Positions 32,039 to 49,330 of a stretch of 64,000 nt of DNA are shown in pieces (positions within the stretch are counted from its first letter, which is position 1; every line of letters starts with the position of its first letter). The stretch spans positions 13,069 through 77,068 of the forward strand of contig RFVF01000003.1 in the NCBI GenBank assembly GCA_009922615.1, given 5' to 3'. Made by a program: the position numbers and the translations under genes. A model generated the notes under the pieces. The model worked only from the letters and a program-made list of their open reading frames with translations, did no database searches and was not told the DNA's origin. Origin of the DNA: Pseudomonadota bacterium (GTDB taxonomy: Bacteria; Verrucomicrobiota; Verrucomicrobiia; Limisphaerales; SXTU01).

Positions 32039-32044
32039 GATGGC

Positions 32045-32731: not shown

Positions 32732-32815
32732 AGAACCGATACTGGCCCGCCTACGTGTCGGACAGATGACTGTTAGGTGTCGTTTCCGTGAAACGCGCTA
32801 AGATTCAAGTCGGCT

Positions 32816-34047
32816 TTAAAACCGGTAGCTCAAGTCCACTGTCACGCTGTTTTGCCGGTAGCTGCGCAGCGCGAGGTCGGAGTCCTTCAAGGTGAACGAG
32901 TAGCCGAGGCCGCCCCGCAGCCGCTCCGACAACTGCCGCGTTAAGGCGGCACCGCAGCCGAAGCGGTCGTAGCTTTCTCCGCCAGCCGCTTTCAATTCCC
33001 GACCGTTCTCGTAGAAGAAGCGCGGGCTCAACGAAGTCTGCTGCGTCACCTTGAAGTCCATCTGGTAACGCACCGACCACACTTCGATGACGTCGGAAGC
33101 GATCCCTTGTTGCAACTCCCGGCTCGCCCGCAAGGTGTGGCCGAACTCCTGCCCGAGCCGGTGTTCCGCTGACAAACCGAAGTAATACGATTGCTGGCTC
33201 GGTGTCTGCCCCACCGTGCCGCCGGAATCAAAATCGTAGAGGCTCAGGCCGGCCTCGGCGCTCACCTTGAGCCGCTGCGTCACGGCCAGCGCGGCATCCA
33301 AGCCCACGCTGTAGCGTCGTTGAGAAAATTCTGATCGTAGTGTGTGAACCCCGCCGTGGCCGAAAGACCGACGGAGAGAGTGCGGTTGAACTGTAACGTC
33401 CCGTGCGCGGCCACCGTCTCCGCCGCGTTATCGAGCTGCTCGAATTGCCGCGTGCTGCTCAGGAACGAGACGTGGTCATAACCTAGGCTCAGGATCAACT
33501 CGTTGAAATCGCCGATGAGCCGCGTTCCCGCGCGGTTGTTGAAGCCGCCGAAAGCCGCCGAGCCGCTGACGCTGCCGACTGCGACCGGGTCCTGCGTGTA
33601 GGAGAATTGATCGTGGAAGTTCAGCAGGAAGTCGCCGAGATACAGGTCCATCGCCAGCTCCGAGCCGGGCGTGATGAGCACCCGGTTGTATTCGGAATGC
33701 TGGACATAAAGCGCAGGGCTGACGCCGACCGAGAGGTTCAGCGAGTTGATCGTCGTGACTGGAAAGTAAGAGCGCAGTTGCACCTGCGGCCGAACGATCA
33801 AGTCCCGCTGCCGGCCCGTATCGGCGAGGTTGATGTTGTCGTTGGCTTCGAGGTTAAGGCCCGTTTCGATCTGCGCCTTCAGCCGCTCGTAACGGAAGCT
33901 ATACGGAGCAGCATCCAACGCCGCGCGCTTGGCCAGCGCGGATTCTTCACCGGCGATGGAGTAACGCGGTGCCTCCTGGGCCAACGCTGGTCCGGCCACT
34001 CCGCCGATAACTCCGAGAACAGCGGCTAGGTGCGACAACGGGCGCAT
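32816..34047 (-). pseudogene. outer-membrane beta-barrel protein of the EPS locus, split by a frameshift near 33307-33330
   Basis: ORF 33280..34308 (true start ATG 34047, MRPLSHLAAVLGVIGGVAGPALAQ) and ORF 32816..33307 are consecutive halves in different frames. Both show alternating beta-strand patterns. The second ends ...VTVDLSYRF, with the C-terminal aromatic residue typical of OMPs. Confidence 0.7.
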
Positions 34048-34306
34048 CCGGCTCGCGGGGGAAATTGCGCTGCCGATTTCAGGGTTCACGCTCAGGTAAT
34101 TTTTCACAATTGGGCTCAGAAAGAGTCCCCAAGCATCCCTCACTTTCTTCGCAGCGAACAAGCGACATTCCGGTGACGCCGTAGCCAACTTGTGACATTG
34201 CCCCGCTTTCACCGCACCTTGCGATGCGTTATATGAGCGGTTGTGTTCTGTCCGCGTTCCGTCGCCAACGCTCCCGTCGCCCACCCCGGCGGCGCGCTTT
34301 CCTGAC

Positions 34307-35698
34307 ATGGTTTCTCATCGCACCCGGGGCGTGTATTTGCTGTGCGTGTATGGGCATCTGCTGTTGTCGCAGGCTTGTTTCTGGATGCTGGCTGGCGTGT
34401 TTCACTTGAGCGGCATCATCACGCTGGTGGGTTCCGAAACGCCGCCGCATTTTCTCTACAGCGAAATTCTTTCCATCGGCGTGGTCTGGGCGATGACCTT
34501 CATCCGCGAGCGCAACCAGTTGATCACCTCCGACAGTCGTCTCGCCCATCACTTCGCGTTGAAACAAGTGGCGACTGCTTACGCCCTGCTGTTCCTCTAT
34601 CTGGCCGCCACGAAAGACACCGGCATCAGCCGGCTGTTAATGTTCTCGCTGCTTCCCGCGCTCTACCTCACGCTGCTGGTCGCCAACACCTGGTTGCCCG
34701 GCTTCATCAGCCGCCAGATGTTCCGCGGCGAACGCGCCGAACGAATTCTGCTTGCGGGCAGCAGCGCGAGCGCGCGGCGCTTGGACCAATGGCTCCAACG
34801 CAAAGGTCTGGTCGGCTACCAATCTATTGGGCGACTCGACGATTATCCCACCGGTCCCGAAGTGCTCGGACCGCTGGCCGATTTGGAAGCCGTCGTCCTC
34901 CGCCACCGCGTCACCCAACTCATCGTCACCGAGTTGGTCATGCCGACGGGCTTTCTCGCTGAAGCCACGGGCATTTGCGAGCGACACGGCATCCGCCTCC
35001 TAGCCGTCAGCGACGTGGACGATCAATTTCACCACCCGGTGATGCTGCTAGAAGACGACGGCGTGCGGTTTTTCACCTTGCGCGATGAACCATTGGAGAA
35101 CCCGCTCAACCGCATCTTTAAACGCGCCTTTGACATAGCCCTCGCCACGCCCGTGACCGTGCTTATTTTGCCCATCACCCACCTGCTGGTCTGGGGGCTG
35201 CAACGATGGCAGTCTCCCGGTCCCGTCTACTTCACCCAGACACGCGCCGGCATGAAAAACCGGCCCTTTACCATCTATAAATACCGCTCCATGCGGCTGG
35301 ACAACCCGGACGAAACCCGCCAAGCCACCATCAACGATGACCGCGTATTTCCGGCCGGGCGCTGGCTACGCAAACTGAGCTTGGACGAGCTGCCGCAATT
35401 CTACAACGTGCTGCGCGGCGACATGAGCGTCGTCGGACCGCGCCCGCACATGATCCAGCACAACGCCCTCTTCGCGCAGGCCCTGAAGAACTACCAAGTG
35501 CGCACCATCGCCAAGCCCGGTATCACCGGCCTGGCGCAAGTGCGCGGCCTGCGCGGCGAGACCAGCACCCCGGAAGCCATCGCCGCCCGCGTGACCGCCG
35601 ACGTGGAGTATCTCGAAAATTGGTCGTTCGCCGGCGACTGCCTGATCGTGCTGCGCACCTTCCTGCACATAGCCTCGCCCCCAAAGCGGGCCGTATAG
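34307..35698 (+). CDS. polyprenyl-phosphate hexose-1-phosphate transferase (WcaJ/EpsB-type priming sugar transferase)
   Basis: ORF 34241..35698, ATG 34307. TM N-terminus. KRAFDIALA, PGPVYFTQTRAGMKNRPFTIYKYRSM, DELPQFYNVLRGDMSVVGPRP and TGLAQV are canonical Bac_transf motifs. Confidence 0.9.
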   Translation: MVSHRTRGVYLLCVYGHLLLSQACFWMLAGVFHLSGIITLVGSETPPHFLYSEILSIGVVWAMTFIRERNQLITSDSRLAHHFALKQVATAYALLFLYLAATKDTGISRLLMFSLLPALYLTLLVANTWLPGFISRQMFRGERAERILLAGSSASARRLDQWLQRKGLVGYQSIGRLDDYPTGPEVLGPLADLEAVVLRHRVTQLIVTELVMPTGFLAEATGICERHGIRLLAVSDVDDQFHHPVMLLEDDGVRFFTLRDEPLENPLNRIFKRAFDIALATPVTVLILPITHLLVWGLQRWQSPGPVYFTQTRAGMKNRPFTIYKYRSMRLDNPDETRQATINDDRVFPAGRWLRKLSLDELPQFYNVLRGDMSVVGPRPHMIQHNALFAQALKNYQVRTIAKPGITGLAQVRGLRGETSTPEAIAARVTADVEYLENWSFAGDCLIVLRTFLHIASPPKRAV

Positions 35699-35968
35699 CT
35701 TGGACGCTCTCAAACTTCAGATCGCACCAGAGGAGCAGCGCACCCGCGAAAACCCGGCGGCTCGCACGACCGACCTGCTCAAGCAGGTCTTTGGCGCGGT
35801 CAAGAAGCAGTGAGCCGTCGCCGGACCTGCGATGCTGGAAAAGCTGCGGCGTGTTTGGGGCTACAAGGAGAGTAGTCTCTGCCGCCGCCCACCTCGCCCG
35901 GCCAACATCATCCACCCCACCATCTGAGCCTGGTCGTCGGCCGCTCCGCGTGCTAGGCTGCGACCACT

Positions 35969-36901
35969 ATGGATCAACAGAGAGTCCGCGAACTCGTTGC
36001 GCTGCTTCCGCCGGGCGCCACGTATCCCGCCCACCCGCGCCGCAGTCCTTTTCAAGCCCGTCCGAGCGCGTCCGAACGCTTCGCGCTGGCTCTGCATGAC
36101 CCGGCCTTCGGCTGGCACTTCGTTCAGGAGCACCTCCGGCTGCGGCGCTGGCTGCCCGACACCATCCACGAATGGGAACTGCTGCAATGCTTCCTGACGC
36201 AGTGGTTGAAAGTGACCGATCCGCTGATGCTGGAGGTCGAGTCCTTCCGCAGCGAAGTGCGCCGCCAAGAGCGGGATCTTTTGGAGGCGCTGCTGCTGGC
36301 CAGAAGCGTCACCCTGGGAGATATCGCTGGCCACCTGCACACCACCGAGGAAGTTGTCGAGGCGTATGCCTGCTTATTCTGGAACGTGCGCGACCGCCTC
36401 GACGAGCGCGGCTACCTCAACACGCTGCTCTACCCGGCCGGTTGGCAGGCCGCCATGCGCGACGCGCAACCCAATGCCATCGGCGACCGTCTCCGTCTGC
36501 TCCGGGCCGGCGCGCAGAACGACGTGGAGGAAGTCCTGGCCTTGGCGGGTTACCAGCCAGGCAGCAAAGGTGGGGTGTTGACCGAGGACAGCGGCGAGGT
36601 GGAACGGCGGATGCAACAGGACGCCCAGCGGCGGATGCGGGCTGGCTGTCGCATGGAGGATCAGGTTGTCCGCGCAGTTCATACGGCCGCCGTCCGGCGG
36701 AAGGAAATTGCCCTGACCGAGGACGAGTTGGCCTTGCACAAGATCAATGCCGTGTCGCCCGCCCTGGAAGAGATCAGAAAATACAACGGGTTAAAGGGGC
36801 TGCCACCGCCGGATTACCGCGAGCTCATCGGGCGTGCCCGGGCGAACGCGGCCCCGGTGATCCGGGAGCTGCTTCCCCACGGCGACGGGAGCGGAAACTG
36901 A
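35969..36901 (+). CDS. hypothetical protein (element-borne, the only plus-strand gene)
   Basis: 310-aa ORF with good coding-like composition. No family recognised. Confidence 0.55.
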   Translation: MDQQRVRELVALLPPGATYPAHPRRSPFQARPSASERFALALHDPAFGWHFVQEHLRLRRWLPDTIHEWELLQCFLTQWLKVTDPLMLEVESFRSEVRRQERDLLEALLLARSVTLGDIAGHLHTTEEVVEAYACLFWNVRDRLDERGYLNTLLYPAGWQAAMRDAQPNAIGDRLRLLRAGAQNDVEEVLALAGYQPGSKGGVLTEDSGEVERRMQQDAQRRMRAGCRMEDQVVRAVHTAAVRRKEIALTEDELALHKINAVSPALEEIRKYNGLKGLPPPDYRELIGRARANAAPVIRELLPHGDGSGN

Positions 36902-36921
36902 GGATGACCGGCCGCGCCGGC

Positions 36922-37407
36922 TCACTCCCCACCGACCGGACATTCCGGCGCGCTCGCAGAAAGCACAGGCGGCAGGCCGGTCAACGGCAGGTTCACTGGC
37001 AACAAATAATCATTGGTGACTAGCGCGTCTTCCGGCTCGGTTACCAGCTCCAGCCTCAGGCCATTCGCCGACGGCACCAATCGAATCGCTTGCTCCGCTG
37101 CAGGCGTGGCCACCGGCGTGGCCGGCGGCTCCGACTGCGGCTGCACGAGCTGCGCGAGGAACTGGTTCAACCCGCGCACGGCATCAGCTTCTGCGTCTTG
37201 GATGAGCCGATGTAACTGGCCGGGCAGCGACGCCAGGGCCGCAGGGCTGGCCGCAAAGGTCTGGTCGCGGCCGGCTTCAATGACACGCGCGCTCTTGCGC
37301 GCGTCCGCGAGGATGACCAACACGGAGATCGAGATTGGCCGGGAGTCATCCTCCCTTGGAGGCGTTTGTTCAGCGCCGTTTGAGCTTACGGAATTGGGTG
37401 TGTTCAT
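36922..37407 (-). CDS. hypothetical protein
   Basis: 161-aa ORF, last gene of the minus-strand element operon. No family recognised. Confidence 0.5.
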   Translation of the reverse strand: MNTPNSVSSNGAEQTPPREDDSRPISISVLVILADARKSARVIEAGRDQTFAASPAALASLPGQLHRLIQDAEADAVRGLNQFLAQLVQPQSEPPATPVATPAAEQAIRLVPSANGLRLELVTEPEDALVTNDYLLPVNLPLTGLPPVLSASAPECPVGGE

Positions 37408-37435: not shown

Positions 37436-38748
37436 TCAGACCGTCACGAGTCGCCGAAGCTGGTGTTCTGCGAGCGAAAACATTCCGCCGGGCAGTTCGA
37501 CCACGAAGCCCTCCGCGACCAATCTTTCGAGAACGGGCCACCATCGGTCCGTTGATTGACCCGGCAGAGCACGGTAGAGAGTTCTAAAATCCACCTCACC
37601 CAACTGCTTGAGCTTGGCCAGCAGGCGCTGCCGGTCCGCCAGCTGCCCGGCTTCCCTGAGTTCACGTTCGGCGGCCTCGTGGAGGCCCAACATCGCGCGA
37701 CCGAAGCTGCGGGCGAGTGCAATGCCCGCCTGCGCATGGGTCGCCAGAAGCGGCTCCCCCACGTCATCACCTGCCAGATGCAGCACGAGAGCGAGGCGGC
37801 GGGCCATCGTTGGCCAGCCATAGACGACCGCCTCGACCGCCCAGGCCAGAGGGGGTCCGGCGCGAGCAGTTCCGTGTGGAACGCGTTGAAGAGTCGGCTG
37901 GCCTCGGGGCTGACCTTGACCCCCAGCGGAGACGGGTCACCACGCCGCGCAAAGACGCGGCGCAGCAAGTCGGCCCAGCGTTCGGCGAGGGCGGTTGGCA
38001 GTGTTGGGTCGGCTGGCCAGCGCGTCGGACGAGGGCCGGCGTCCACGACGAGAAACCGCGTGCTGAGGTCGGCGGAGAGTCCGGTGAGAAATTCCCTGCC
38101 AGCCGGCGCATCTGCCTGGGCTTCGATGAGCACGTTGACGACTTCCCGGCGAGGCACCCCCTGCTTCGGCACCTTCGCCCGTCCGGCGAGGAGTTGCTGG
38201 AAGATGCGCCACCGTGAACCATTGTTATCGGCTTGGAGGTCTGGCAAAAACCGCCCAAATGAGCCGGCGTCGAGCGCCACGAGCACCGAGCCATCGAAGC
38301 TACGGGGCAGCGCGGCTTGCAGCTCATCGAAGGTGGGCGCGGTCAGCAGCACCACGGGTTGCTGGCGTGCCCGGACCTCGGCCGGGTTGGTGTGACTGCC
38401 CGACAGTAGAAGTGATGGCGGCTCCTCGCCGGCCAGAGCCCACAGCTGGTTCTGCACCGCGACCAGCGGACCTAGGAGTGCCTGCCGTGCCAGCGCGACG
38501 GTGGAGCCGGGTGGGGTGACGACCAGCGCGCTCAGCTCCGCCGCCAGCGGCGCGGTGGCACCTTCCACCAGTTGTGCCGCCGGCCCTGTGGCCGCTGACA
38601 GCACTTGAAGCACGAGCGCGTTGCCTACCGGGACAGGCAGTTCGAGTCGGTCGTCCAGACAGCCGACGAGAGCGCCTAGGAGACCCGGCAGCGGTGCTGG
38701 GACGGCAGGCAGGTTGGCGGTCGCCACTGAGAGCGACGGGTTAATCAT
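37436..38748 (-). pseudogene. DUF3987 (YfjI)-like replication-associated protein, frame broken at a G-run near 37838-37843
   Basis: N-terminus LPAVPAPLPGLLGALVGCL...LELPVPVGNALVLQVLSAATG...LSALVVTPPGSTVAL fits the DUF3987 pattern. After ...ELLAPDPLWPG the 434-aa ORF turns to junk, while the other frame continues AVEAVVYGWPTMARRLALVLHLAGDD... (ORF 37436..37807). Confidence 0.6.
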
Positions 38749-39121
38749 GCGCCCCCTCCGCGCCCTGCGTCGGGGCGTCCGGTTTCACCCCGCGGTTGTG
38801 CTGGTGCACCGCACGAAGGTGCAGAACCATGGCCGCTTCCAGGAGCCCAGGGGAGTGCTGGCTTTCGGCCACGCAGGCCAACAGGGTCCCCACGGCCTTC
38901 AGCGTGGCGAGGCCCGGCGGCTGAGGGTCCGTCGGTGGGCTCGGGGCTGCGGCGCCCTGAGCCGGGCGGCGCGTCGCATGCAGCCGGGCAAAGGCATCGA
39001 GCAGCGATGCGACCACGGTCGGCCACTCAGGATACGGGAGGGTTTCGTTGGGTGCTGGCCCCACGGCGGGGGGTGATGCGTGGTTGTCGTCGACGTGGGA
39101 GTTAGATTTCGGCGGTGTCAT
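38741..39121 (-). CDS. hypothetical protein
   Basis: 126-aa ORF with an 8-nt overlap onto the downstream DUF3987-like gene. Confidence 0.5.
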   Translation of the reverse strand: MTPPKSNSHVDDNHASPPAVGPAPNETLPYPEWPTVVASLLDAFARLHATRRPAQGAAAPSPPTDPQPPGLATLKAVGTLLACVAESQHSPGLLEAAMVLHLRAVHQHNRGVKPDAPTQGAEGAHD

Positions 39122-39176
39122 TTGTAGGGTTGAAGCCCCCTGCCGCCCAGATAAACCGGGCGGCAGGAAGCATGGT

Positions 39177-40538
39177 TCAGGTGTTTGCCTTCAGAGCCTG
39201 GAGCGCCGGGACTGAGAACGGGTCCGCCGGCAATGCTGGTGGTGTCCACGCGGCTCGTTCCACTCCGGGCCATTCACTGATTCGTGACCACCAGCCGCCG
39301 AGCCAGACCCGATGTTCAGCATAGGCGATGGCGCTCAGGCGATTAAGTTCGGCCCGCTGCTCAAGCGTCAGCTTTACGCCGGGATGATGGCGTTTCCATG
39401 CGGCCTTTCGGATCTCGTGGAAGCAATTCTCCGATTTGAGATCGGCGTCGGGCCACAGGTGCAGCTTGCTCTCCAAGCCGAGTTCCTGGGCCAGCCGCTG
39501 CACCATCCGCAGCGAGTCCATCGCGTAGGCGCGCCAGTCGTTGCGGGTGGCAAAGACGGCCGTGTTGACGATCTGGCCTTCGGCCGCGGCGTGTCTGGCA
39601 ATCCGTTCGATGTTGTCAGCGCGAACATTGACCGGCTCGGCGTAGATGGTGAACGGGTTGAGCGCCTTGACGGCCGTCAGTGTGGCGCGGACGTCGGCCT
39701 CGTCGCACTCGGCATAGGTGGGCGCAACCGCCACAAAGATGTTAAGATCCTGATCCCGGGCCGCCTGCAACGTGGCCAGCCGCTGCGTCGGTGCCGGCGC
39801 ATTCGGCTCGTAGATGCGAGCGAGCTGATTGTTCAACGTCGGCAAGCTCATCCCGAACATCAGCCGGTTGCCGAACGACTTGAACAAGTCGAAGTCCTGC
39901 CGGGCGAGCGGACTGCGCGTCAGAATCCGCACGTTCAACGTCGAGTGATCCCGGATCAGCTCCAGGATTCGCCGCACCATGTGGGCGCGCTCCGCGTTCA
40001 GCCGCTTTTGCAGCGCCTTGTCCGGCGCGGTGATAGTCTGATAGGGATCCGTCGTGGTGCAGAGCATCACGGCCCGGTTGCCGTCCAAGCTCAATTCACT
40101 CAAGGGACGATTCTCCGCTGCCTGGATGTCCTTCATGACCCGTCCTTCGTCGAACGGGCGAAGGAGCACGTAGTCGCCCCACTGGGCACCGGGGTCCTCA
40201 ACGCCGTAGCGTTTCTTCAGCACGGGTTTGAGGAACTTCGTGGATACCGCCGGCACGTAGCAGAATTCGCAGCTGTGGCCGCAGCCAAGGGAGATGTTGC
40301 ACTTCCAGTCAGAAAGGCTCTTGAACTTGAAATGGTTGAGCTCAATCCGAACTGGCTTGTGCCAGAAGTCCACCATGGCGGCTGGAGCTGCTGGTGTAGC
40401 GGCGAGAGGCTTCATGGTGCCCAACGCGATCGACTTTTCGTGCGCCTGTCTCAACGCCGCCGTAACGAGGTTGTTGGCGGCGTGGATGTTGTTGGCCGAT
40501 TCGGCCGCGGGGTTTACAAGGGTCACTTGCATAGTCAT
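39177..40538 (-). CDS. radical SAM protein, SplB/COG1533 (DNA-repair-photolyase-like) type with N- and C-terminal extensions
   Basis: NISLGCGHSCEFCYVP contains CxxxCxxC in the GC-x-H-x-C-x-x-CY context typical of spore-photoproduct-lyase-like enzymes. Confidence 0.7.
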   Translation of the reverse strand: MTMQVTLVNPAAESANNIHAANNLVTAALRQAHEKSIALGTMKPLAATPAAPAAMVDFWHKPVRIELNHFKFKSLSDWKCNISLGCGHSCEFCYVPAVSTKFLKPVLKKRYGVEDPGAQWGDYVLLRPFDEGRVMKDIQAAENRPLSELSLDGNRAVMLCTTTDPYQTITAPDKALQKRLNAERAHMVRRILELIRDHSTLNVRILTRSPLARQDFDLFKSFGNRLMFGMSLPTLNNQLARIYEPNAPAPTQRLATLQAARDQDLNIFVAVAPTYAECDEADVRATLTAVKALNPFTIYAEPVNVRADNIERIARHAAAEGQIVNTAVFATRNDWRAYAMDSLRMVQRLAQELGLESKLHLWPDADLKSENCFHEIRKAAWKRHHPGVKLTLEQRAELNRLSAIAYAEHRVWLGGWWSRISEWPGVERAAWTPPALPADPFSVPALQALKANT

Positions 40539-40556
40539 GTTTGGGTAGAGAAGTGA

Positions 40557-41222
40557 TCAGGCAGCTGCCGACAGGGATTGTTCGCCCGTGCTGTCAGGCA
40601 CCGCGCGTGTGTGGAGAAACAAAGAGTCGGATCCGACGGCGGCTTCGACGGCGCTGAAGAGCGCCTCGAACTCTTCCGAGTCCCAGTAGTGCTCGATCAA
40701 GTCGAGGGCCAGCGAGCCAAGCCGGGTGGTGAGCTCGTGCAATTCGCAGAGGCTGACGGTGCCAGGTTGCTGATTGTGCCGGTCCATCAACCGGTCATGC
40801 TCGGCCTCAAGGAACGCCGCCTCGTCAGCCTGCTCCTCAACATATTCACGAACGTCGGGCTCGGCGGCGCAAGGCAGGCTGAGATCCACGGCGCGAAAGT
40901 GCGCGATGAGCGAGCCGCGCAAGATTCTCCAAAGTGCGCGAACGTGCTTGGGGTCAACGTGGCCGGAATTGAATCCCGCGCGGACAGCGAGGCAGACGCC
41001 CAGCTCTTTGTGTGCACTGTGGAGCAAGCTGATGGCGTGTGCGTAGGCATCCTTCAGCGTGGCGTCGGCCGACAGAGGCGGAGCGCCCTCAGGCTGCCGG
41101 GCGCTATGATACAAGTCGAGGTCAGATGCCCGACTCCAACCGGGAGGGTTGGCGATGTTGATGAAGCCCGGCGGCAAGGCCGCGAGCGCTGCGTTTTGAT
41201 CTGTCATACTGCTGGTTTGCAT
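40557..41222 (-). CDS. hypothetical protein
   Basis: ORF 40557..41417. The upstream part overlaps the polymerase gene, so ATG 41222 (MQTSSMTDQN) is the likely start. It is preceded by an A-rich leader. Confidence 0.5.
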   Translation of the reverse strand: MQTSSMTDQNAALAALPPGFINIANPPGWSRASDLDLYHSARQPEGAPPLSADATLKDAYAHAISLLHSAHKELGVCLAVRAGFNSGHVDPKHVRALWRILRGSLIAHFRAVDLSLPCAAEPDVREYVEEQADEAAFLEAEHDRLMDRHNQQPGTVSLCELHELTTRLGSLALDLIEHYWDSEEFEALFSAVEAAVGSDSLFLHTRAVPDSTGEQSLSAAA

Positions 41223-41367: not shown

Positions 41368-43758
41368 TCATAGGGTGGGGAACTTTCCAGGTTTGTGGAG
41401 GAGCAGCAGTTCAGCACGGAAGCCGGGGAACCGATCGGTGATGACCTTGATGAACTGCAACACCGCAGGCGTCGTGGCGACGGAGTGTTCGATCAGTTTC
41501 GAAGCAGGGCGCTGGGCGTTCTCCACATCCTCGCGGCGACACGGATAGCCGGAGGCAGTGAGCCACTCCGCCAGTTCCGGGTAGTTCATGACGCGGGAAT
41601 CCAGCCCCCAACGGTTGCGCACAAAGGCGCGGAGGAACATGCGCAGCGCCACCTTGGAGGCACCCCTCGGCGCGGTGGTCCTCACAGCGCGGCCGGGCGG
41701 TGTGGCGCAGAAGGCGCGGAAGTCCGCGAGGTCCCCGACGGTCTTCAACACGCGCTGGCGGCGGAACACCTCCCAGTGAGCGCGGCACTCTAGGAACGCC
41801 TCGACGTTGGGCCAAGGCCGGGACTCGAAGGCAAGGTGAGGAATCTCGCGGATGTCCCGCATGCATTCGCCGACAGGTTCGCGCTTGAAGTCGTAGTCGA
41901 GGCTGGCGCGGCGCTCCACGGGCACGGCGACCAGGTCGCCGCCATGACGGTGCAGGTCCTGGAGCGAACGCAACTGCGAGTAGGTGACCTTGCTGTCAGC
42001 GTCGCGGCGGACGAACTGGTCGATCAGCCAATCATTATGCAGCGCCTTGTCCTTAATGGGCGGCTTGATGCCGGCCTTGGCTAAGACAATTGGCTCGCCG
42101 GCAAGGGGAACGAGAGTTGCCTGGCCCCGGGTGCGAATGCCCAAGGGTTGAGCGATCCGGTGCTTGATGTCGTAAATATTCGGGTCGCCAGTGAGGCGCT
42201 GGCGGGCGAGGGAGTAGGCTCGGCAGAGCTCACCCTGTGTGACGGCACCGATGTCGGCCTCCGTCGCGGTGCTGAGGAAACCGTCGGTCGTGGCGCTGCA
42301 CACCACGACGTGTGGTGGCAGCGCGTTGAGCATTTCACCCATAACACCCCGGATGAAGGAGGTGATCCACGCCGCGAAGAAAGGATTTGAGATGCGCCCG
42401 GGACGAAGCCACTGCAGCTGTCCAGTCCGGGAATCGAAGGCGCGTTTGGGGCGCGTGCCCTGCGCAAGGCGGCCGTAGGTGGAATTGGCCAGTTCCTTCC
42501 AAAGCGCGTTCTTGACGTCGCCCTTGGGGAACTGACTCCGGCGGCGGGTGCATTCCCGCACGAACAGCTCAAAGGGCCTGATGCTGTCGTCCACCGGCAG
42601 CACCACGCCGTGGAGGATTTCAAGGTGCGCCCCCAGCTTGCGGGCCAAGCAGATCTCCGGAGAGCAACAAAAGGAAGTGCCGGACAAAGGGAACAAAGGA
42701 CCGTGCTCGGTCGCAACCGGAAGGCAGGGGTAGCGCGTGCCGGGTGGAAAGCGGAAGCGGACGTGGGCAAAGCCCAGGGTGAGTGGGCCGTAGTCGTCGA
42801 GGTTCGTGGAGCTGCGCAGCCGCTCCCAGTCGGGCATGCCGATGAGAGACATGGCCACCGAGTAGGCACCGGCCAAGTCCACGTCGAGCCAGGTGCCCAT
42901 AGGACCTGCACCGAAGAGGAACTGCACGTTCAGTCCGCCGTGGAAACACTCGGTGGCCAAGGTCTCGAACAGGTGGCGTGACGCCTCCGGCCTGACTGAC
43001 TTGCGCGGCAGGAGCCGACCTTTCGCAGGATTCCACGCCCGCTCAACTAACTCCTCGATGCCGAGCACCTGCTGGCGAGAGACCCCCTTGCTCTCCCAGA
43101 GCCCGAGGAGGAAGGCCTCACCGAGACCAGACAACGTCACCGGCACTTCGGCCCTGCCGGTCAACCCCTCATTGAGCTGAAGGAGCTGCAGGGCGTGAGC
43201 GACGCAGATCGTCGGGTCTTGGCGAGCGTAACGATCGAATAGTTCGGGATCACGCTCCAGCGGCTCAGCCATGCGCTCAATCTGGCCGTCGGACAACTCA
43301 ACCCTGGGCTCACCAAGCAGGGCACCGAGTGAGTCCAAAGACTTGGAGCCGCCCGGCGTCAGCAGCAGCGTGTCCCGGAGCGTGACGGCGATGACATGGC
43401 GATGCTTGCTGGAGTCGTGGACCGGCACCTTGAGCGGATGCTGCAGGGTCACGTAGGTGTTCCTGATCGAGCTGAACTGGAGCTGGAGCTTGGGGAAGTC
43501 CGCCAGCATGGCGAGGTCCGACAAGGTCCAGTGCCCGACCAGAGTCAGGGCCTTGGGCCACCGCCGCAGATGTCCTGCCTTCCGCCCTGCCTCGATGATG
43601 TGACGAAGGAGAGAGGCTAGGGTGAGGCGCTTGCCGTCCTGACAGTAGATGACACCGGACCAGGAGGGCCCGCCTAGCAATTGGCCGTGGAACGAATAGC
43701 AGAGTGCCCGGTTAAGCGAGGCGTCCTGTTTGTCCCACTCGCAGTCGAAGCCCACCAC
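41368..43758 (-). CDS. family-B DNA polymerase of the primer-independent (piPolB) type
   Basis: ExoI VGFDCEW at residues 2-8. ExoIII YARQD. Motif A DVDLAGAYS. Motif B KELANSTYG (KxxxNSxYG). Motif C SATTDGF (TTD instead of DTD). Also KH..(8)..RTRG. 796 aa. Confidence 0.8.
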   Translation of the reverse strand: MVGFDCEWDKQDASLNRALCYSFHGQLLGGPSWSGVIYCQDGKRLTLASLLRHIIEAGRKAGHLRRWPKALTLVGHWTLSDLAMLADFPKLQLQFSSIRNTYVTLQHPLKVPVHDSSKHRHVIAVTLRDTLLLTPGGSKSLDSLGALLGEPRVELSDGQIERMAEPLERDPELFDRYARQDPTICVAHALQLLQLNEGLTGRAEVPVTLSGLGEAFLLGLWESKGVSRQQVLGIEELVERAWNPAKGRLLPRKSVRPEASRHLFETLATECFHGGLNVQFLFGAGPMGTWLDVDLAGAYSVAMSLIGMPDWERLRSSTNLDDYGPLTLGFAHVRFRFPPGTRYPCLPVATEHGPLFPLSGTSFCCSPEICLARKLGAHLEILHGVVLPVDDSIRPFELFVRECTRRRSQFPKGDVKNALWKELANSTYGRLAQGTRPKRAFDSRTGQLQWLRPGRISNPFFAAWITSFIRGVMGEMLNALPPHVVVCSATTDGFLSTATEADIGAVTQGELCRAYSLARQRLTGDPNIYDIKHRIAQPLGIRTRGQATLVPLAGEPIVLAKAGIKPPIKDKALHNDWLIDQFVRRDADSKVTYSQLRSLQDLHRHGGDLVAVPVERRASLDYDFKREPVGECMRDIREIPHLAFESRPWPNVEAFLECRAHWEVFRRQRVLKTVGDLADFRAFCATPPGRAVRTTAPRGASKVALRMFLRAFVRNRWGLDSRVMNYPELAEWLTASGYPCRREDVENAQRPASKLIEHSVATTPAVLQFIKVITDRFPGFRAELLLLHKPGKFPTL

Positions 43759-43808
43759 TATGATAGGTGCCCGGATAGATGTCCGGCGATGTCGCGGTGG
43801 AATTCAAG

Positions 43809-44042
43809 TCAGGCATTGTGTCCTCCGTCGTCATGAACTTCCGGCTCCTCGCCGCGTTTGAGGCGCTCGTAGGCGTCAATCGCGGACTGGTAGTCGTAGA
43901 GCGATTCGCGGCCTGGCTTCCCTTGGCGAACGGTCTTGATCCAGCCGGCCTTGATCAGCTGGCCAGCGAGCGTCTTCGAACCGAATAGCCGGTTCAGGTC
44001 GCGGCGGTTCACCATGAACGGTGTGGTAGTCGTGGGGCTCAT
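43809..44042 (-). CDS. small DNA-binding protein, excisionase/AlpA-like (putative)
   Basis: 77 aa, 4-nt overlap with the upstream xis-like gene. FMVNRRDLNRLFGSKTLAGQLIKAGWIKTV resembles a winged-helix excisionase fold. Confidence 0.45.
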   Translation of the reverse strand: MSPTTTTPFMVNRRDLNRLFGSKTLAGQLIKAGWIKTVRQGKPGRESLYDYQSAIDAYERLKRGEEPEVHDDGGHNA

Positions 44043-44332
44043 TCGCCGCCCTCCTGCTGACCTGCCTCAGCATCGGACCGAGGCGTTAGTGACCCGTCGA
44101 TGAGCGGGTTCGCCACCTGCGCGAGTTCACCTCGCTCGGCACGCTCGATGAAGCGCTGAAGCTCATGGTCGGTTATGTAAAGTCTGCCGGCAATCCGGAT
44201 GGGTTTGATCCAACCGCGCTGAACCCAGCGCCAGCCGGTGACACGGGATCGCCCCAACTCGTCCAAGAAATCCGAAAAAGATTTCACGCGCGGCTGTTGC
44301 GCCGGCCTTTGTTCGCTTTCATTTCGTTGCAC
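44039..44332 (-). CDS. excisionase-family HTH (HTH_17/MerR-like) protein
   Basis: FLDELGRSRVTGWRWVQRGWIKPIRIAGRLYITDHELQRFI matches the excisionase-type HTH pattern. Confidence 0.6.
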   Translation of the reverse strand: MQRNESEQRPAQQPRVKSFSDFLDELGRSRVTGWRWVQRGWIKPIRIAGRLYITDHELQRFIERAERGELAQVANPLIDGSLTPRSDAEAGQQEGGE

Positions 44333-44883: not shown

Positions 44884-45864
44884 CTATGCCAGACACCCGG
44901 GAACACGCAAAACCTCCCGCTCAATCATTTGTTCTGCCGGGTCTGCGGGCGTGCCTTCAGGCCGGGGCAGGTCCAAGTGCAAACGACCGGACCTCGGCAC
45001 GGTGATTTGCTGCGGAGATAAAGGCTCCAACACCCAGGGTGGAGCGAACGAGAAGCACCAGGCGTCGCGCATTCTGATCATCATGTCCAAGGCTGAATTC
45101 TTGAGCCTCATCCAATTGGAAGAATTTGGCCTGAGGGTTCCGGTGGCTTTCTGAACCTTGATCAAATCGCCGGCAAAATAGACCGAGAGTCTCAGGACAG
45201 ACAATTCGTTCATCCGGCTGTAGATAACCCCTGGATTCTCCCGCTTGCCAACGCCGCGACGATTGTGCGTCACGGCGGTCGGATCCCAGGGCGGATTACC
45301 CCGGAGTTCTGCTTTGACGTGCTGTCGGACCTTTTCCGCATGCAAGGTTTTTAGCTGCTCACGCCGCCGCGTCACAATTTGGGCCAGCCGCCGCAAAATC
45401 TGTTTGTCCGTGCGATGAAAGTTGATCCGGACGAACAGATCAGCGGCGTCACCCAGGTCCGCCGGATCATGATCGCAGTCACCCACGGCGGTGCGGTAAG
45501 TGTAAATGTCCAGATCAATCTCCTGCACGGTTTTCTGATCAAACAGTGACGTGTGCTCATTAATTCCCACCTTGCGCAGTCGCGCTCTGCGTTCGGTTTC
45601 GGGTATCGCAAGCCAAGGGTGCGCCGGAAATTCGGGGAAATGCTTGACGAGGAAGGTGGCGAACCGGGGCGGGTTTCGCCGCTCCACAGGCAACTCACCC
45701 TCTTGGCGAGGTGTGGGCTTCTTGTCCGATCGTAACTCCAGCACCCACTTCACCATGGGGCGATAAGAGCGGGCAAACTCGTAGTTGAGCCAGCCGTTCA
45801 GTTCCCAGTCGGCCAAGACCTTTTGCGCCCGGGTCGGCCATTTCCATTCGTTGTCATTTAGCAT
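44884..45864 (-). CDS. hypothetical protein (element-borne, lower GC)
   Basis: ORF 44884..45912 (TTG). The first in-frame ATG is at 45864 (MLNDNEWKW). No family recognised. Confidence 0.55.
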   Translation of the reverse strand: MLNDNEWKWPTRAQKVLADWELNGWLNYEFARSYRPMVKWVLELRSDKKPTPRQEGELPVERRNPPRFATFLVKHFPEFPAHPWLAIPETERRARLRKVGINEHTSLFDQKTVQEIDLDIYTYRTAVGDCDHDPADLGDAADLFVRINFHRTDKQILRRLAQIVTRRREQLKTLHAEKVRQHVKAELRGNPPWDPTAVTHNRRGVGKRENPGVIYSRMNELSVLRLSVYFAGDLIKVQKATGTLRPNSSNWMRLKNSALDMMIRMRDAWCFSFAPPWVLEPLSPQQITVPRSGRLHLDLPRPEGTPADPAEQMIEREVLRVPGCLA

Positions 45865-45898
45865 GATGGGGATCCCTCTGCGTGGGGTGCTTGGCTTT

Positions 45899-47137
45899 TC
45901 ATTTGAACTCAATCCGTTGCGCCTGCTTTTTGGTGTGTTCGTCGTTCAAATGACCATAAACTTTGCCGATTAACACCCCGCCATCCCTGTGGCCGACCCA
46001 TTTGGCGATGGTCATGAAGTCGACGCCCGACATGACGCACATGGAAATGAAAAAATGGCGGCAGTCGTGAAAGCCAAACGCTGGCAGACCAGCCGCGGCA
46101 CGGGCCAGTCGGAGTGACTCGCGGAAGGATTTGGCGCGCTCGTCCCGCGCGCCGCGTTGGGGCGAAGGGAAAAGCCACTCGGAGTCCGGGGCGCGACGTG
46201 ACTCCATATCACGGAGATGAGCCTTGAGCCGGGGATTGAAATCCACCACGCGGGTCTGGCCATTCTTGGTCAGCTTGTCCGTGCCAATCTGAAGCTGCTC
46301 CGTGGTCCAGTGCACGTCGCTCCATTTGAGCCGCAGGGTTTCACTCATGCGGGAACCGCACCGCGCCAGCAGGCGCACGAAGTCGGCGAATTGCTGCGCG
46401 TTTTTTAGGGGCACACCCGGTTCGCCGGACTTGGCCAGCTTCCCACCGGCAAAGACGGGACGAAAGCCGGCCGCGCAGATCGCCTCCACTTGGGCGTCGG
46501 TGAAGAGTGCGCGTTGGTGGGGTTTGCATTTGAGCGGCTTGTGGTCGCCGATCGTGACCGCTTTGAGCAGCCCTTCCTTCACGGCGCGGTGGAGCACATT
46601 GCGCAGGCAGATCACTTCCAGGTTCACGGTGCGCGGAGCCGCCCCGGCCGCCTGTCGCTGGGCGATGAACTGGTCAACCATCTTCGAAGTGAGGCGATGC
46701 AGACGCACGCCGCCCAGCTGTTTCAGCCAATGGCTCAGGTGGGCGCGTTCCGAATTCAACGTGCTCGGTCGTTTCTCGTGCATGGCCTGCTCGTAGTGGG
46801 CGAAATACTGCGGGACATACTCGCTCAATTTGGGCGTCTGGCCCAGGGTGGGCAGGCTCCGGTCCTCCCGCTGGATGAGCAACCGGCGCAGCGCGGCTTG
46901 GGCTTCGGCGTCCGTGCCGGCTTTCTCCAGCGGGACGCGGAGCACTTTGGCGATGCCCGTGCCGGGATTTTGAACGGCCACGCGGGCATAGTAGCGCCCG
47001 TTGCGCACCCAGAGTCCGCGCACGGGACGCTTGCGGGCGTCGTGCACCTTTTGATACGTTCCGCGACGAGATGGGCGCTTGCCTTCGATGTTGTCGGCCG
47101 GGGCGCCGGGATTTCCCGGCGTTGCATCACGTTGCAT
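45899..47137 (-). CDS. tyrosine-type site-specific integrase
   Basis: ORF 45899..47173, ATG at 47137. ARCGSRMSETLRLKW (Arg I), FGFHDCRHFF (H-x-x-R) and HRDGGVLIGKVYGHL (catalytic Tyr region). Confidence 0.9.
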   Translation of the reverse strand: MQRDATPGNPGAPADNIEGKRPSRRGTYQKVHDARKRPVRGLWVRNGRYYARVAVQNPGTGIAKVLRVPLEKAGTDAEAQAALRRLLIQREDRSLPTLGQTPKLSEYVPQYFAHYEQAMHEKRPSTLNSERAHLSHWLKQLGGVRLHRLTSKMVDQFIAQRQAAGAAPRTVNLEVICLRNVLHRAVKEGLLKAVTIGDHKPLKCKPHQRALFTDAQVEAICAAGFRPVFAGGKLAKSGEPGVPLKNAQQFADFVRLLARCGSRMSETLRLKWSDVHWTTEQLQIGTDKLTKNGQTRVVDFNPRLKAHLRDMESRRAPDSEWLFPSPQRGARDERAKSFRESLRLARAAAGLPAFGFHDCRHFFISMCVMSGVDFMTIAKWVGHRDGGVLIGKVYGHLNDEHTKKQAQRIEFK

Positions 47138-47217
47138 GGCGTTACAGTGGCACAAAAAGTGGCACAACGTCAAACGATGTGGCTGAATTCATGTGCAAGT
47201 TGTTCATAATCAACAGT

Positions 47218-47301
47218 GGGCACGTGGCGGAATGGCAGACGCGCTGGACTTAGGATCCAGTGGAGCAATCCGTGCAGGTTCAAGTCCTGTCGTGCCCACC
47301 A
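47218..47301 (+). tRNA. tRNA-Leu (anticodon UAG), class II with a long variable arm and encoded CCA
   Basis: Manual fold: acceptor GGGCACG/CGTGCCC, anticodon stem CTGGA/TCCAG with loop CTTAGGA, variable arm tGGAgcaaTCCgt, T-arm GCAGG-TTCAAGT-CCTGT, then A-CCA. Confidence 0.9.

Positions 47302-48897: not shown

Positions 48898-49330
<433 letters not shown>

What the first reader, a model, noticed from the sequence alone, without database searches (positions are those of the whole stretch)
41368..43758. PolB with piPolB-diagnostic substitutions and an almost absent N-terminus
Seen directly: ExoI (FDCEW) begins at residue 4, ExoIII is YARQD, motif A is DVDLAGAYS and motif B is KELANSTYG. Motif C reads TTD (SATTDGF) instead of the canonical DTD. 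A KH dipeptide is followed 10-12 residues later by R-T-R (DIKHRIAQPLGIRTRG). My recollection is that TTD and a KH plus basic pair are the features linked to primer-independent DNA synthesis in E. coli piPolB. The ExoI motif sits much closer to the start than I recall for E. coli (D59). The upstream in-frame stop leaves room for at most about 15 more residues.
Basis: partly seen in the sequence, partly recalled or inferred. Interest (0 to 1): 0.75.

Follow-up and report, generated by a model that had tools for sequence, protein, structure and literature searches.

The report
Frameshift-truncated piPolB gene in a pipolin
This is a primer-independent-type family B DNA polymerase (piPolB) gene on a small integrated mobile element in a Verrucomicrobia genome; its "missing" N-terminus comes from a 176-base frameshifting deletion in this copy, so it is an ordinary member of a known family, not a new minimal enzyme.

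Summary
The protein is a full-length, collinear homologue of the E. coli-type piPolB (33% identity, E 2e-131). It has all exonuclease and polymerase catalytic residues, the piPolB signature SxTTDG, and KH-X8-RTRG with a conservative K-to-R change shared by 40 of 57 relatives. An AlphaFold model (pLDDT 88.9) is closest to phi29 DNA polymerase.

The gene lies in an element of about 11 kb: tRNA-Leu, tyrosine integrase, excisionase-like HTH proteins, piPolB, then cargo of unknown function. That is pipolin-like, but no flanking att repeat was found.

The "almost absent N-terminus" is not native. An otherwise identical sequence in five other assemblies encodes 880 residues. The window lacks 176 nt, which shifts the frame after codon 18 and leaves the polymerase frame with only an internal GTG and no Shine-Dalgarno sequence. 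The lost part is a tail predicted to be disordered (residues 1-79). Without reads I cannot tell whether the deletion is a real allele or an assembly error.

Verdict: new member of a known kind, with the piPolB identification supported and the N-terminus reading explained away. Interest is low. Primer-independent synthesis is inferred, not shown.

The parts
41368..43758 (-). Polymerase reading frame as it stands in the window. It is 796 codons from an internal GTG and equals residues 85-880 of the intact piPolB. In window numbering it holds ExoI D5/E7, ExoII D129, ExoIII Y177/D181, motif A D292/D294, motif B K421, PolC T490-T491-D492, K532-H533 and R542-T543-R544-G545.
43712..43834 (-). Remnant of the native 5' end: ATG at 43834, Shine-Dalgarno GGAGGA at 43826-43821 and a second ATG (Met7) at 43816. 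After codon 18 the frame is shifted. The result is a 40-codon dead-end ORF (MTTEDTMPDLNSTATSPD|IYPGTYHSGGLRLRVGQTGRLA*) that stops at 43714-43712 and overlaps the GTG at 43758.
43781..43782 (-). Deletion junction. The 176 nt present in L001 (10054-10229; 69% G+C) are missing here. The endpoints share only an imperfect CGCCGGA/CGCCGCA, and the longest shared k-mer is 6 nt. The deletion removes codons 19-76 and shifts the frame by 2.
43809..44042 (-). orf77, a small conserved protein. In the intact allele its end overlaps the piPolB start. It is conserved upstream of piPolB in six Verrucomicrobial relatives.
44039..44332 (-). 97-aa HTH_17, excisionase-like DNA-binding protein.
   Evidence: PF12728, E 1.7e-4; phrog_66 excisionase, E 3e-7
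44884..45912 (-). Conserved protein of unknown function between the integrase and the HTH gene. The ORF is 342 aa as listed; it was called as 326 aa in L001. It is part of the conserved core (L004, L007, L014).
45899..47173 (-). Tyrosine recombinase/integrase.
   Evidence: (PF00589, E 1.3e-18)
47218..47301 (+). tRNA-Leu (anticodon TAG). Its 5' end faces the integrase gene, so it is the presumed integration landmark.
37444..41207 (-). Variable cargo downstream of piPolB. It comprises orf216 (40557-41207), a SplB/Rv2578c-like radical SAM protein of 453 aa (39177-40538), orf126 (38741-39121) and orf434 (37444-38748). None has a PADLOC hit, and none occurs in the 80 related loci.
35909..37407 (.). 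Probable distal end of the element: orf161 (36922-37407, -) and orf310 (35969-36901, +). Both are shared with the related element L014. Homology to L014 stops near 35909.

Best explanation
The ORF is the piPolB (primer-independent-type family B DNA polymerase) gene of a pipolin-like integrative element of about 11 kb (window ~35.9-47.2 kb) in a Verrucomicrobiota metagenome-assembled genome. The element is organised as tRNA-Leu, tyrosine integrase, a conserved unknown gene, an excisionase-like HTH gene, orf77, piPolB and then variable cargo. By analogy with the characterised E. coli enzyme, the intact protein (880 aa, or 874 from the SD-preceded Met7) would be a proofreading, strand-displacing, phi29-like polymerase. 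It would start DNA chains de novo on the excised circular element, with the invariant KH lysine helping to hold the initiating nucleotide and [K/R]TRG holding the primer terminus. In this window a 176-nt deletion just after codon 18 shifts the frame. Ribosomes starting at the native SD/ATG make a 34-40 residue dead-end peptide. The polymerase frame can be entered only at an internal GTG with no recognisable ribosome-binding site. The 'missing N-terminus' is therefore a lesion of this copy (or of this assembly), not a feature of the enzyme. The lost segment is a tail predicted to be disordered, and the whole folded enzyme is still encoded. Shown here: homology, motifs, fold, gene context and the deletion. 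Inferred: primer-independent activity, the role in element replication, and poor expression of the truncated frame.
For: Family:
- BLASTP against P0068 gives 33% identity, E 2e-131, collinear over residues 2-780 against 56-862.
- The P0068 gene is 99.4-99.6% identical in DNA to a gene in 296 of 5426 complete E. coli genomes.
- P0068 carries D59/E61, D368, K613/H614 and K623/R625 at exactly the positions mutated in the defining paper.
- TTDG, the KH lysine and T-R of xTRG are invariant in 57 of 57 relatives. Position 623 is R in 40 and K in 16.
- The paper defines piPolBs by SxTTDG and KH-X8-KTRG.

Fold:
- The AF2 model has pLDDT 88.9 and pTM 0.85.
- The best PDB matches are phi29 DNAP (E 3e-15, TM 0.66-0.68 on the target). 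Viral matches are protein-primed PolBs.
- hhalign puts phi29 motif A, TPR1, motif B, TPR2 and motif C in register.

Context:
- The integrase, HTH_17/excisionase-like gene and tRNA-Leu are adjacent.
- The int-orf-HTH-orf77-piPolB order is conserved in the Verrucomicrobial relatives L004, L007 and L014. The E. coli-type locus reads int-HTH_17-orf-piPolB.
- The cargo is not conserved.
- G+C is 0.58-0.63 in the element against 0.65-0.67 in the flanks.

Deletion:
- P0001 is 100% identical over 796 aa and has 84 more residues. It is found in ENA and Logan assemblies.
- blastn shows 176 nt missing, with zero other differences in the element.
- Residues 1-79 have pLDDT below 50, and the first strand starts at residue 84.
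Against: - No biochemical data exist for this protein or its clade.
- Pfam gives only a sub-threshold PF03175 hit (E 0.042).
- No att direct repeat was found, so the element's limits and mobility are unproven.
- The element abuts the 5' end of the tRNA, whereas 99.8% of delimited pipolins sit at tRNA 3' ends.
- The K623-equivalent residue is R, not K.
- The cargo matches no known defence system.
- Real allele or assembly error is unresolved. The same 796-aa product appears under four NCBI accessions, which may share one assembly pipeline. The window also has a 7-nt frameshifting deletion in a host gene, with no SNPs over 22.6 kb. That pattern fits assembly or consensus error as well as it fits clonal variants.
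Confidence: 0.85

Rival explanations
1. The 176-nt deletion is an assembly or consensus artefact. The organism carries the intact 880-aa gene, and the truncated ORF exists only in this set of deposited MAG sequences.
For: - Five independent assemblies (one ENA re-assembly and four Logan contigs) give the intact gene with 100% identity elsewhere.
- The window has a second frameshifting deletion (7 nt at ~33315) and no substitutions over 22.6 kb.
- A sister MAG record (EBT61) has yet another ~169-nt frameshifting deletion in the same gene.
- That record's contig (157,198 nt) is nearly the same length as the ENA scaffold with the intact gene (157,783 nt).
- The junction was not found in the GTDB representative genomes or in JGI metagenome contigs.
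Against: - The deletion endpoints share at most 6 nt, so collapse of a k-mer repeat in a de Bruijn graph cannot create this junction. It should be present in reads.
- The identical 796-aa product is deposited under four different NCBI accessions from different MAGs.
Confidence: 0.45
2. The deletion is a real allele segregating in the natural population. Under this reading the piPolB of this integrated element is being inactivated (pseudogenised) in part of the population.
For: - The junction cannot arise from k-mer collapse.
- The same product occurs in four MAG records.
- Another record has an additional deletion in the same gene.
- A related element (L014, 81% identity) retains only residues 4-422 of piPolB and has lost the cargo.
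- The 2024 survey reports truncated or interrupted piPolBs and pipolin deletions.
Against: There are zero SNPs alongside multiple indels. All deletion-bearing records may come from one project and one pipeline. No independent assembly carries the junction.
Confidence: 0.5
3. The 796-aa form is a functional 'minimal' piPolB translated from the internal GTG, and the N-terminal tail is dispensable.
For: - The deleted part is predicted to be disordered, and the fold starts at residue ~84.
- N-terminal length before ExoI varies from 0 to 144 residues among relatives.
- About 20 of the best 150 cluster representatives start within ~20 residues of ExoI.
- P0040 has room for at most ~36 residues.
- The 2017 paper calls the piPolB N-terminal region non-conserved.
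Against: - There is no SD-like sequence before GTG 43758.
- The native SD/ATG now drives an overlapping out-of-frame ORF that ends 45 nt downstream of the GTG.
- No promoter-like site was found.
- At least one 'short' homologue (P0039) is a miscalled start with the conserved tail motif upstream.
- The tail carries a motif conserved within the clade, which suggests it has a function.
Confidence: 0.12
4. It is a protein-primed PolB (phi29/Bam35/casposon type), not a primer-independent one.
For: The best structural matches are phi29 DNAP and viral protein-primed PolBs. TPR1- and TPR2-like insertions are present.
Against: - It has SxTTDG and KH-X8-[KR]TRG instead of DTD and KxY.
- It shows full-length homology to the E. 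coli-type piPolB.
- No terminal-protein, Cas1 or capsid gene is nearby. The element is integrated with a tyrosine recombinase rather than being a linear genome with terminal inverted repeats.
Confidence: 0.04

Closest known systems
E. coli 3-373-03_S1_C2 pipolin piPolB (Redrejo-Rodriguez et al. 2017, PMC5695915). The proxy used here is P0068, which is 99.4-99.6% identical in DNA to the E. coli genes.
   Same: - The alignment is collinear over the full length (33% identity, E 2e-131).
- ExoI/II/III, motifs A and B, SxTTDG and KH-X8-xTRG are all in register.
- The C-terminal ~200-residue extension beyond the phi29-like thumb is also conserved.
- The gene lies downstream of an integrase and an HTH_17 gene next to a tRNA-Leu.
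   Different: - Only 33% identity.
- R instead of K at the K623 position, the commoner state in this clade (40 of 57).
- The native N-terminal tail is 84 residues against 55, with a different short motif.
- In this window the tail is lost through a frameshifting deletion.
- The host phylum is Verrucomicrobiota.
- The element abuts the 5' rather than the 3' end of the tRNA, and no att repeats were found.
- The cargo is unrelated.
Alphaproteobacterial and betaproteobacterial piPolBs (Sphingomonadales, Rhodobacterales, Rhizobiales, Burkholderiales; the 'minor Gram-negative group' of Mateo-Caceres and Redrejo-Rodriguez 2024, PMC11551731)
   Same: They are the closest relatives outside Verrucomicrobia (33-39% identity). 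They share RTRG and a short conserved motif ending in W-V/E in the N-terminal tail.
   Different: The Verrucomicrobial sequences form their own closer group (46-81% identity: L004-L009, L014, L053, L055), with their own conserved int-orf-HTH-orf77 core.
phi29 DNA polymerase and other protein-primed PolBs (PDB 2PYJ, 2EX3, 1XHX)
   Same: This is the best structural match (Foldseek E 3e-15, TM 0.66-0.68 normalised to phi29). The order exonuclease, palm, TPR1, fingers, TPR2, palm, thumb is the same, and motifs A, B and C are in register.
   Different: - About 12% identity, and no sequence-level hit to any PDB chain.
- TTD instead of DTD, and KH-X8-RTRG instead of KxY.
- About 200 extra C-terminal residues.
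- No terminal protein gene.
- It is carried on an integrative rather than a linear element.

Membership tests
piPolB (primer-independent family B DNA polymerases) | Significant full-length sequence homology to the characterised E. coli piPolB | tested here: met
   BLASTP against P0068 gives E 2e-131 and 33% identity, residues 2-780 against 56-862. The P0068 gene is 99.4-99.6% identical to genes in 296 complete E. coli genomes and carries the published residue numbering.
piPolB (primer-independent family B DNA polymerases) | Intact 3'-5' exonuclease motifs ExoI (DxE), ExoII and ExoIII (YxxxD) | tested here: met
   D5/E7, D129 and Y177/D181 in window numbering. These columns are conserved in 55-57 of 57 relatives.
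piPolB (primer-independent family B DNA polymerases) | Polymerase motifs A (DxD...AY) and B (KxxxNSxYG) | tested here: met
   DVDLAGAYS carries D294, the equivalent of E. coli D368. KELANSTYG is present. The D, K, Y and G columns are invariant and align to phi29 motifs A and B.
piPolB (primer-independent family B DNA polymerases) | PolC motif SxTTDG, with the first catalytic Asp replaced by Thr | tested here: met
   SATTDG at window residues 488-493. TTDG is invariant in 57 of 57 relatives. T aligns with phi29 D456 and D with D458. The definition is in PMC5695915.
piPolB (primer-independent family B DNA polymerases) | Extended KH-X8-KTRG motif in place of KxY | tested here: met
   KH-RIAQPLGI-RTRG has exactly X8 spacing. 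K is found in 57 of 57 relatives, H in 54, T and R in 57. The first position of the tetrad is R here and in 40 of 57 relatives (K in 16), which is a conservative variant. In the model the motif lies on strand E613-626 and the following turn, as the paper describes.
piPolB (primer-independent family B DNA polymerases) | TPR1 and TPR2 subdomains of protein-primed-type PolBs | tested here: met
   phi29 DNAP is the top structural hit, with TM 0.66-0.68 over nearly its whole length. hhalign aligns phi29 TPR1 (261-358) with residues ~388-478 of the intact protein, and TPR2 (398-420) with ~519-542. The hhalign probability is low (10%), so this rests mainly on the model.
piPolB (primer-independent family B DNA polymerases) | De novo (primer-independent) DNA synthesis | not testable with these tools
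   This needs purified protein and unprimed ssDNA assays with gamma-labelled nucleotide.
Pipolin (piPolB-encoding mobile element) | Encodes a piPolB together with a recombinase | tested here: met
   A tyrosine integrase lies at 45899-47173 (PF00589, E 1.3e-18), 2.1 kb upstream of piPolB. An HTH_17/excisionase-like gene lies between them. The order is conserved in relatives.
Pipolin (piPolB-encoding mobile element) | Integrated at a tRNA/tmRNA gene | tested here: met
   tRNA-Leu(TAG) at 47218-47301 lies 45 nt from the integrase start. Relative L004 has the same arrangement with tRNA-Leu(CAA). The element lies on the 5' side of the tRNA, which is unusual.
Pipolin (piPolB-encoding mobile element) | Flanked by att-like direct repeats that overlap the tRNA | tested here: not met
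   No second copy of any part of the tRNA or its flanks was found. This was checked with repeats of >=16 nt, blastn-short with word size 7, 18- and 32-nt patterns with up to 3 mismatches, and a local alignment with the distal boundary. By ExplorePipolin's terms the element would count as 'incomplete/not delimited'.
Pipolin (piPolB-encoding mobile element) | Variable cargo module, often defence genes | tested here: inconclusive
   The cargo (37444-41207) is absent from related elements. It has no PADLOC hit. Only a SplB/Rv2578c-like radical SAM protein can be recognised.

The most novel reading that the evidence does not exclude
The 176-nt deletion, and the further ~169-nt deletion in a sister record, are real alleles. 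Under this reading a wild Verrucomicrobial population carries intact and frameshifted piPolB genes side by side in a previously undescribed pipolin lineage. That lineage sits at the 5' side of tRNA-Leu genes and carries an uncharacterised radical-SAM cargo. It would capture piPolB inactivation in progress. If instead the GTG form is expressed, it would show that the conserved-motif-bearing disordered tail is dispensable for the enzyme.
Probability: 0.3. Interest if true: 0.4.

Novelty: new member of a known kind. Interest (0 to 1): 0.25.

Why it matters
piPolBs are of interest as the only family B polymerases known to start DNA chains without a primer, and as whole-genome amplification reagents. 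This copy adds a divergent member from a high-G+C Verrucomicrobial host, 33% identical to the tested enzyme. It also shows that a clade of such elements exists in that phylum. The papers I could read name Proteobacteria, Firmicutes and Actinobacteria, and I could not check the 2024 survey's supplementary tables.

The feature that made the finding look special, an enzyme with no N-terminus, is a lesion or artefact of this sequence. It therefore does not define a new minimal architecture. The practical lesson is that the 880-aa allele, not this ORF, is the one to clone.

Tried and rejected
- Pfam and NCBIfam on the ORF gave only a sub-threshold PF03175 hit and nothing in NCBIfam. They were uninformative, not contradictory.
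- Sequence searches of the PDB with the protein and with the 57-sequence profile gave no hits. No piPolB structure is available, so I used fold comparison instead.
- I searched for att repeats four ways and found none.
- I searched for the deletion junction in GTDB representative genomes and in JGI metagenome contigs and found no matches. The allele could therefore not be confirmed independently.
- Exact look-ups of the 796-aa product's contigs found nothing on record.
- The search for related loci with the 57-sequence alignment failed because the alignment was too divergent. I repeated it with 20 closer sequences.
- I considered a programmed frameshift or recoding at the 5' end and rejected it. 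The intact allele differs by a 176-nt deletion, not by a slippery site.
- I considered that short N-termini in some homologues prove the tail dispensable. This is only partly so: P0039 is a miscalled start, while P0040 really is short.
- PADLOC and PHROGs on the cargo found no defence assignment.
- The supplementary tables of the 2024 survey are not held, so I could not check whether Verrucomicrobial pipolins were already listed. A literature search for pipolin plus Verrucomicrobia found nothing relevant.
Full report
**Observation**

The ORF is real. It lies at window 41368..43758 on the minus strand, has a GTG start and encodes 796 aa. All the quoted motifs are present:
- FDCEW at residues 4-8
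- YARQD at 177-181
- DVDLAGAYS at 292-300
- KELANSTYG at 421-429
- SATTDGF at 488-494
- DIKHRIAQPLGIRTRG at 530-545

**What the protein is**

Curated libraries say little. Pfam gives PF03175 (organellar/viral PolB) at E 0.042, below threshold, and NCBIfam gives nothing. Direct homology is decisive.
- 107 relatives were found in the word-indexed search.
- The exhaustive search of 1.84 billion cluster representatives gave 2092 hits at E<=1e-3 and 628 at E<=1e-30.
- Named relatives include 'DNA polymerase' of Methylobacterium, Plesiomonas, Enterobacter and Vibrio.

P0068 (Enterobacter hormaechei, 866 aa) serves as proxy for the biochemically characterised E. coli piPolB.
- Its gene is 99.4-99.6% identical in DNA to a gene in 296 of 5426 complete E. 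coli genomes.
- It carries D59/E61, D368, K613/H614 and K623/R625 at exactly the positions mutated in Redrejo-Rodriguez et al. 2017.
- The window protein aligns with it collinearly over its whole length (33% identity, E 2e-131, residues 2-780 against 56-862).

In a 57-sequence family alignment (A1) the catalytic and signature columns are invariant or nearly so.
- ExoI D/E is found in 55 of 57 sequences.
- ExoII D is found in 57.
- ExoIII Y/D is found in 57 and 56.
- Both Asp of motif A are found in 57.
- Motif B K, Y and G are found in 57.
- TTDG is found in 57.
- The KH lysine is found in 57 and the His in 54.
- T-R of xTRG is found in 57.

The paper defines the group by SxTTDG in place of YxDTDS and by KH-X8-KTRG in place of KxY. 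The window has SATTDG and KH-X8-RTRG. The K-to-R change at the K623 position is the commoner state in this alignment (R in 40, K in 16, T in 1).

**Fold**

AlphaFold2 on the intact 880-aa sequence with A1 gave a confident model: pLDDT 88.9, pTM 0.85, and 722 residues at pLDDT 90 or above. Foldseek against the PDB ranks phi29 DNA polymerase first (2PYJ, 2EX3, 1XHX; E ~3e-15; TM 0.66-0.68 normalised to phi29). Archaeal and eukaryotic PolBs follow at TM ~0.35. Against viral models the best matches are protein-primed PolBs of Tectiviridae, His1, GA-1 and Rhodococcus phage Toil.

I wrote out the phi29 sequence from memory and verified it against the PDB chain. It was identical except for the engineered D12A and D66A. 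A profile-sequence alignment is statistically weak (probability 10%, E 0.003) but puts every landmark in register:
- phi29 motif A with DVDLAGAY
- TPR1 with residues ~388-478
- motif B with KELANSTYG
- TPR2 with ~519-542
- CDTDS with ATTDG, so T574 aligns with D456 and D576 with D458

No piPolB structure is in the PDB.

**The N-terminus**

The top database hit, P0001, is 100% identical over all 796 residues but is 880 residues long. It is encoded in an ENA scaffold of 157,783 nt and in Logan assemblies of different runs (L001-L003; two further Logan members).

blastn of these loci against the window shows perfect identity on both sides of one gap. The 176 nt at L001 10054-10229 are absent from the window, and the junction falls between 43782 and 43781.
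- The native start is ATG 43834. More likely it is ATG 43816 (Met7), which is preceded by GGAGGA at 43826-43821.
- In the intact allele the start overlaps the end of orf77.
- In the window the first 18 codons (MTTEDTMPDLNSTATSPD) are still there in another frame.
- Because 176 = 3x58+2, the frame then shifts and ends after 40 codons at 43714-43712.
- The polymerase frame is left with an internal GTG that has no Shine-Dalgarno-like sequence and lies inside that dead-end ORF. No promoter-like site is nearby.

So the 'almost absent N-terminus' comes from a frameshifting deletion and is not an enzyme architecture.

**What is lost**

Residues 1-79 of the intact protein are predicted to be disordered (pLDDT below 50). 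The first strand, which bears ExoI, starts at residue 84. The folded enzyme is therefore fully encoded.

The tail is not featureless. Within the Verrucomicrobial clade it carries a conserved short motif (F..VS..L..D.R...W[VE]P....YG). Proteobacterial relatives have 'NSKS.IWV' at the same place. The deletion removes it.

Tail length varies from 0 to 144 residues among relatives. About 20 of the best 150 cluster representatives begin within ~20 residues of ExoI. Of two such cases that I checked, one is a miscalled start with the motif upstream (P0039) and one really has room for at most ~36 residues (P0040). The tail is thus variable and possibly dispensable for catalysis. The 2017 paper calls it non-conserved.

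**Real allele or artefact**

This is unresolved.

Evidence for a real allele:
- The deletion endpoints share at most 6 nt, so collapse of a k-mer repeat cannot create the junction.
- The identical 796-aa product is deposited under four NCBI accessions from Verrucomicrobia MAGs (P0108).
- A fifth record (EBT61_01225/01220) has the same 5' truncation plus another ~169-nt frameshifting deletion, equivalent to window 42453-42621.
- A related element (L014) has lost everything after residue ~422.

Evidence for an artefact:
- There are no substitutions at all over 22.6 kb, yet there are two frameshifting deletions. The second is 7 nt at ~33315 and splits a 396-aa host gene.
- The deletion-bearing records may share one pipeline.
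- A re-assembly scaffold of almost the same length as the EBT61 contig carries the intact gene.
- The junction is absent from GTDB representatives and JGI contigs.

Read mapping would settle it.

**Context**

The gene sits in a low-G+C stretch (0.58-0.63 against 0.65-0.67). Its neighbours, in order, are:
- tRNA-Leu(TAG) at 47218-47301
- a tyrosine integrase at 45899-47173 (PF00589, E 1.3e-18)
- a conserved unknown gene
- an HTH_17/excisionase-like gene
- orf77
- piPolB
- four cargo genes without relatives in 80 related loci and without PADLOC hits; one is a SplB/Rv2578c-like radical SAM protein
- orf161 and orf310, which are shared with L014

Homology to L014 ends near 35909, which suggests an element of about 11.3 kb.

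The core order int-orf-HTH-orf77-piPolB recurs in the Verrucomicrobial relatives L004, L007 and L014. It resembles int-HTH_17-orf-piPolB in the E. coli-type locus. This matches the published 'core plus exchangeable cargo' picture of pipolins.

Two things do not match. No att direct repeat was found. The element also abuts the 5' end of the tRNA, as it does in L004 with a tRNA-Leu(CAA), whereas 99.8% of delimited pipolins are at tRNA 3' ends.

**Distribution**

Among one-genome-per-species bacterial and archaeal genomes, 193 loci encode relatives. The nearest are Verrucomicrobia MAGs, including Limisphaerales and Verrucomicrobiia (46-81% identity). Next come Alpha- and Betaproteobacteria at 33-39%.

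The papers I could read name Proteobacteria, Firmicutes, Actinobacteria and mitochondria as hosts. None mentions Verrucomicrobia. The 2024 survey's supplementary tables are not held.

**Mechanism (inferred)**

By homology with the E. coli enzyme, the intact protein should be a proofreading, strand-displacing replicase. It would start DNA chains de novo. The invariant KH lysine (K616 in the intact protein, K532 in the window) would contribute to binding of the initiating nucleotide. [K/R]TRG would hold the primer terminus, and only the second carboxylate of motif C would be needed for metal binding. It would replicate the excised circular element.

In this window the gene is most likely not expressed properly.

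**Verdict**

The finding is a new member of a known family. The piPolB reading is supported and the N-terminus reading is explained away, so interest is low.

Noticed in passing
window ~33315 (ORFs 33280-34308 and 32816-33307, - strand); L001 20696-20702: The window has a 7-nt deletion (CATCGCA) relative to the otherwise identical ENA scaffold. It splits a 396-aa gene of the adjacent polysaccharide-type locus into two ORFs. This is a second frameshifting indel in this assembly, with no accompanying SNPs.
   Followed up: partly
window 42453-42621 (- strand), seen in proteins P0007/P0110 (NCBI MAG EBT61_01225/01220): A sister MAG record carries a further ~169-nt frameshifting deletion inside the same polymerase gene. 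It splits the gene into a 502-aa and a 258-aa product.
   Followed up: partly
L014 2235-5636 (Verrucomicrobiota MAG, Gunnison River): A closely related element (81% identity) retains only residues 4-422 of piPolB. These are followed directly by homologues of orf161 and orf310. The C-terminal half of the polymerase and the cargo are gone.
   Followed up: partly
window 37444-41207 (- strand): The cargo module consists of four genes: orf216, a SplB/Rv2578c-like radical SAM protein of 453 aa, orf126 and orf434. They have no PADLOC hit and no counterpart in 80 related loci. Pipolins are described as defence islands, so this could be an uncharacterised system.
   Followed up: partly
window 47174-47301; L004 4304-4436: The element lies on the 5' side of tRNA-Leu(TAG). 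The 76%-identical relative L004 lies in the same way next to tRNA-Leu(CAA). Homology between the two runs through the intergenic region into the first ~33 nt of the tRNA. No att repeat was found. Published pipolins are almost all at tRNA 3' ends.
   Followed up: partly
residues ~27-50 of the intact protein (L001 ~10080-10150); absent from the window: The N-terminal tail, predicted to be disordered, carries a short motif conserved in the Verrucomicrobial clade (F..VS..L..D.R...W[VE]P....YG). Proteobacterial piPolBs have a related 'NSKS.IWV' motif at the same place. It may be a docking motif of unknown partner.
   Followed up: no
window 48945-48979: A short tandem run of the heptamer GGAATTC (CGGAATTCGGAATTCGGAATT) lies in the host flank.
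   Followed up: no
window 30000-36000: The polysaccharide export/biosynthesis-type locus (Bac_transf, Poly_export and ParA-like genes in L001) also has lower G+C (0.60-0.62) than the surrounding ~0.67.
   Followed up: no
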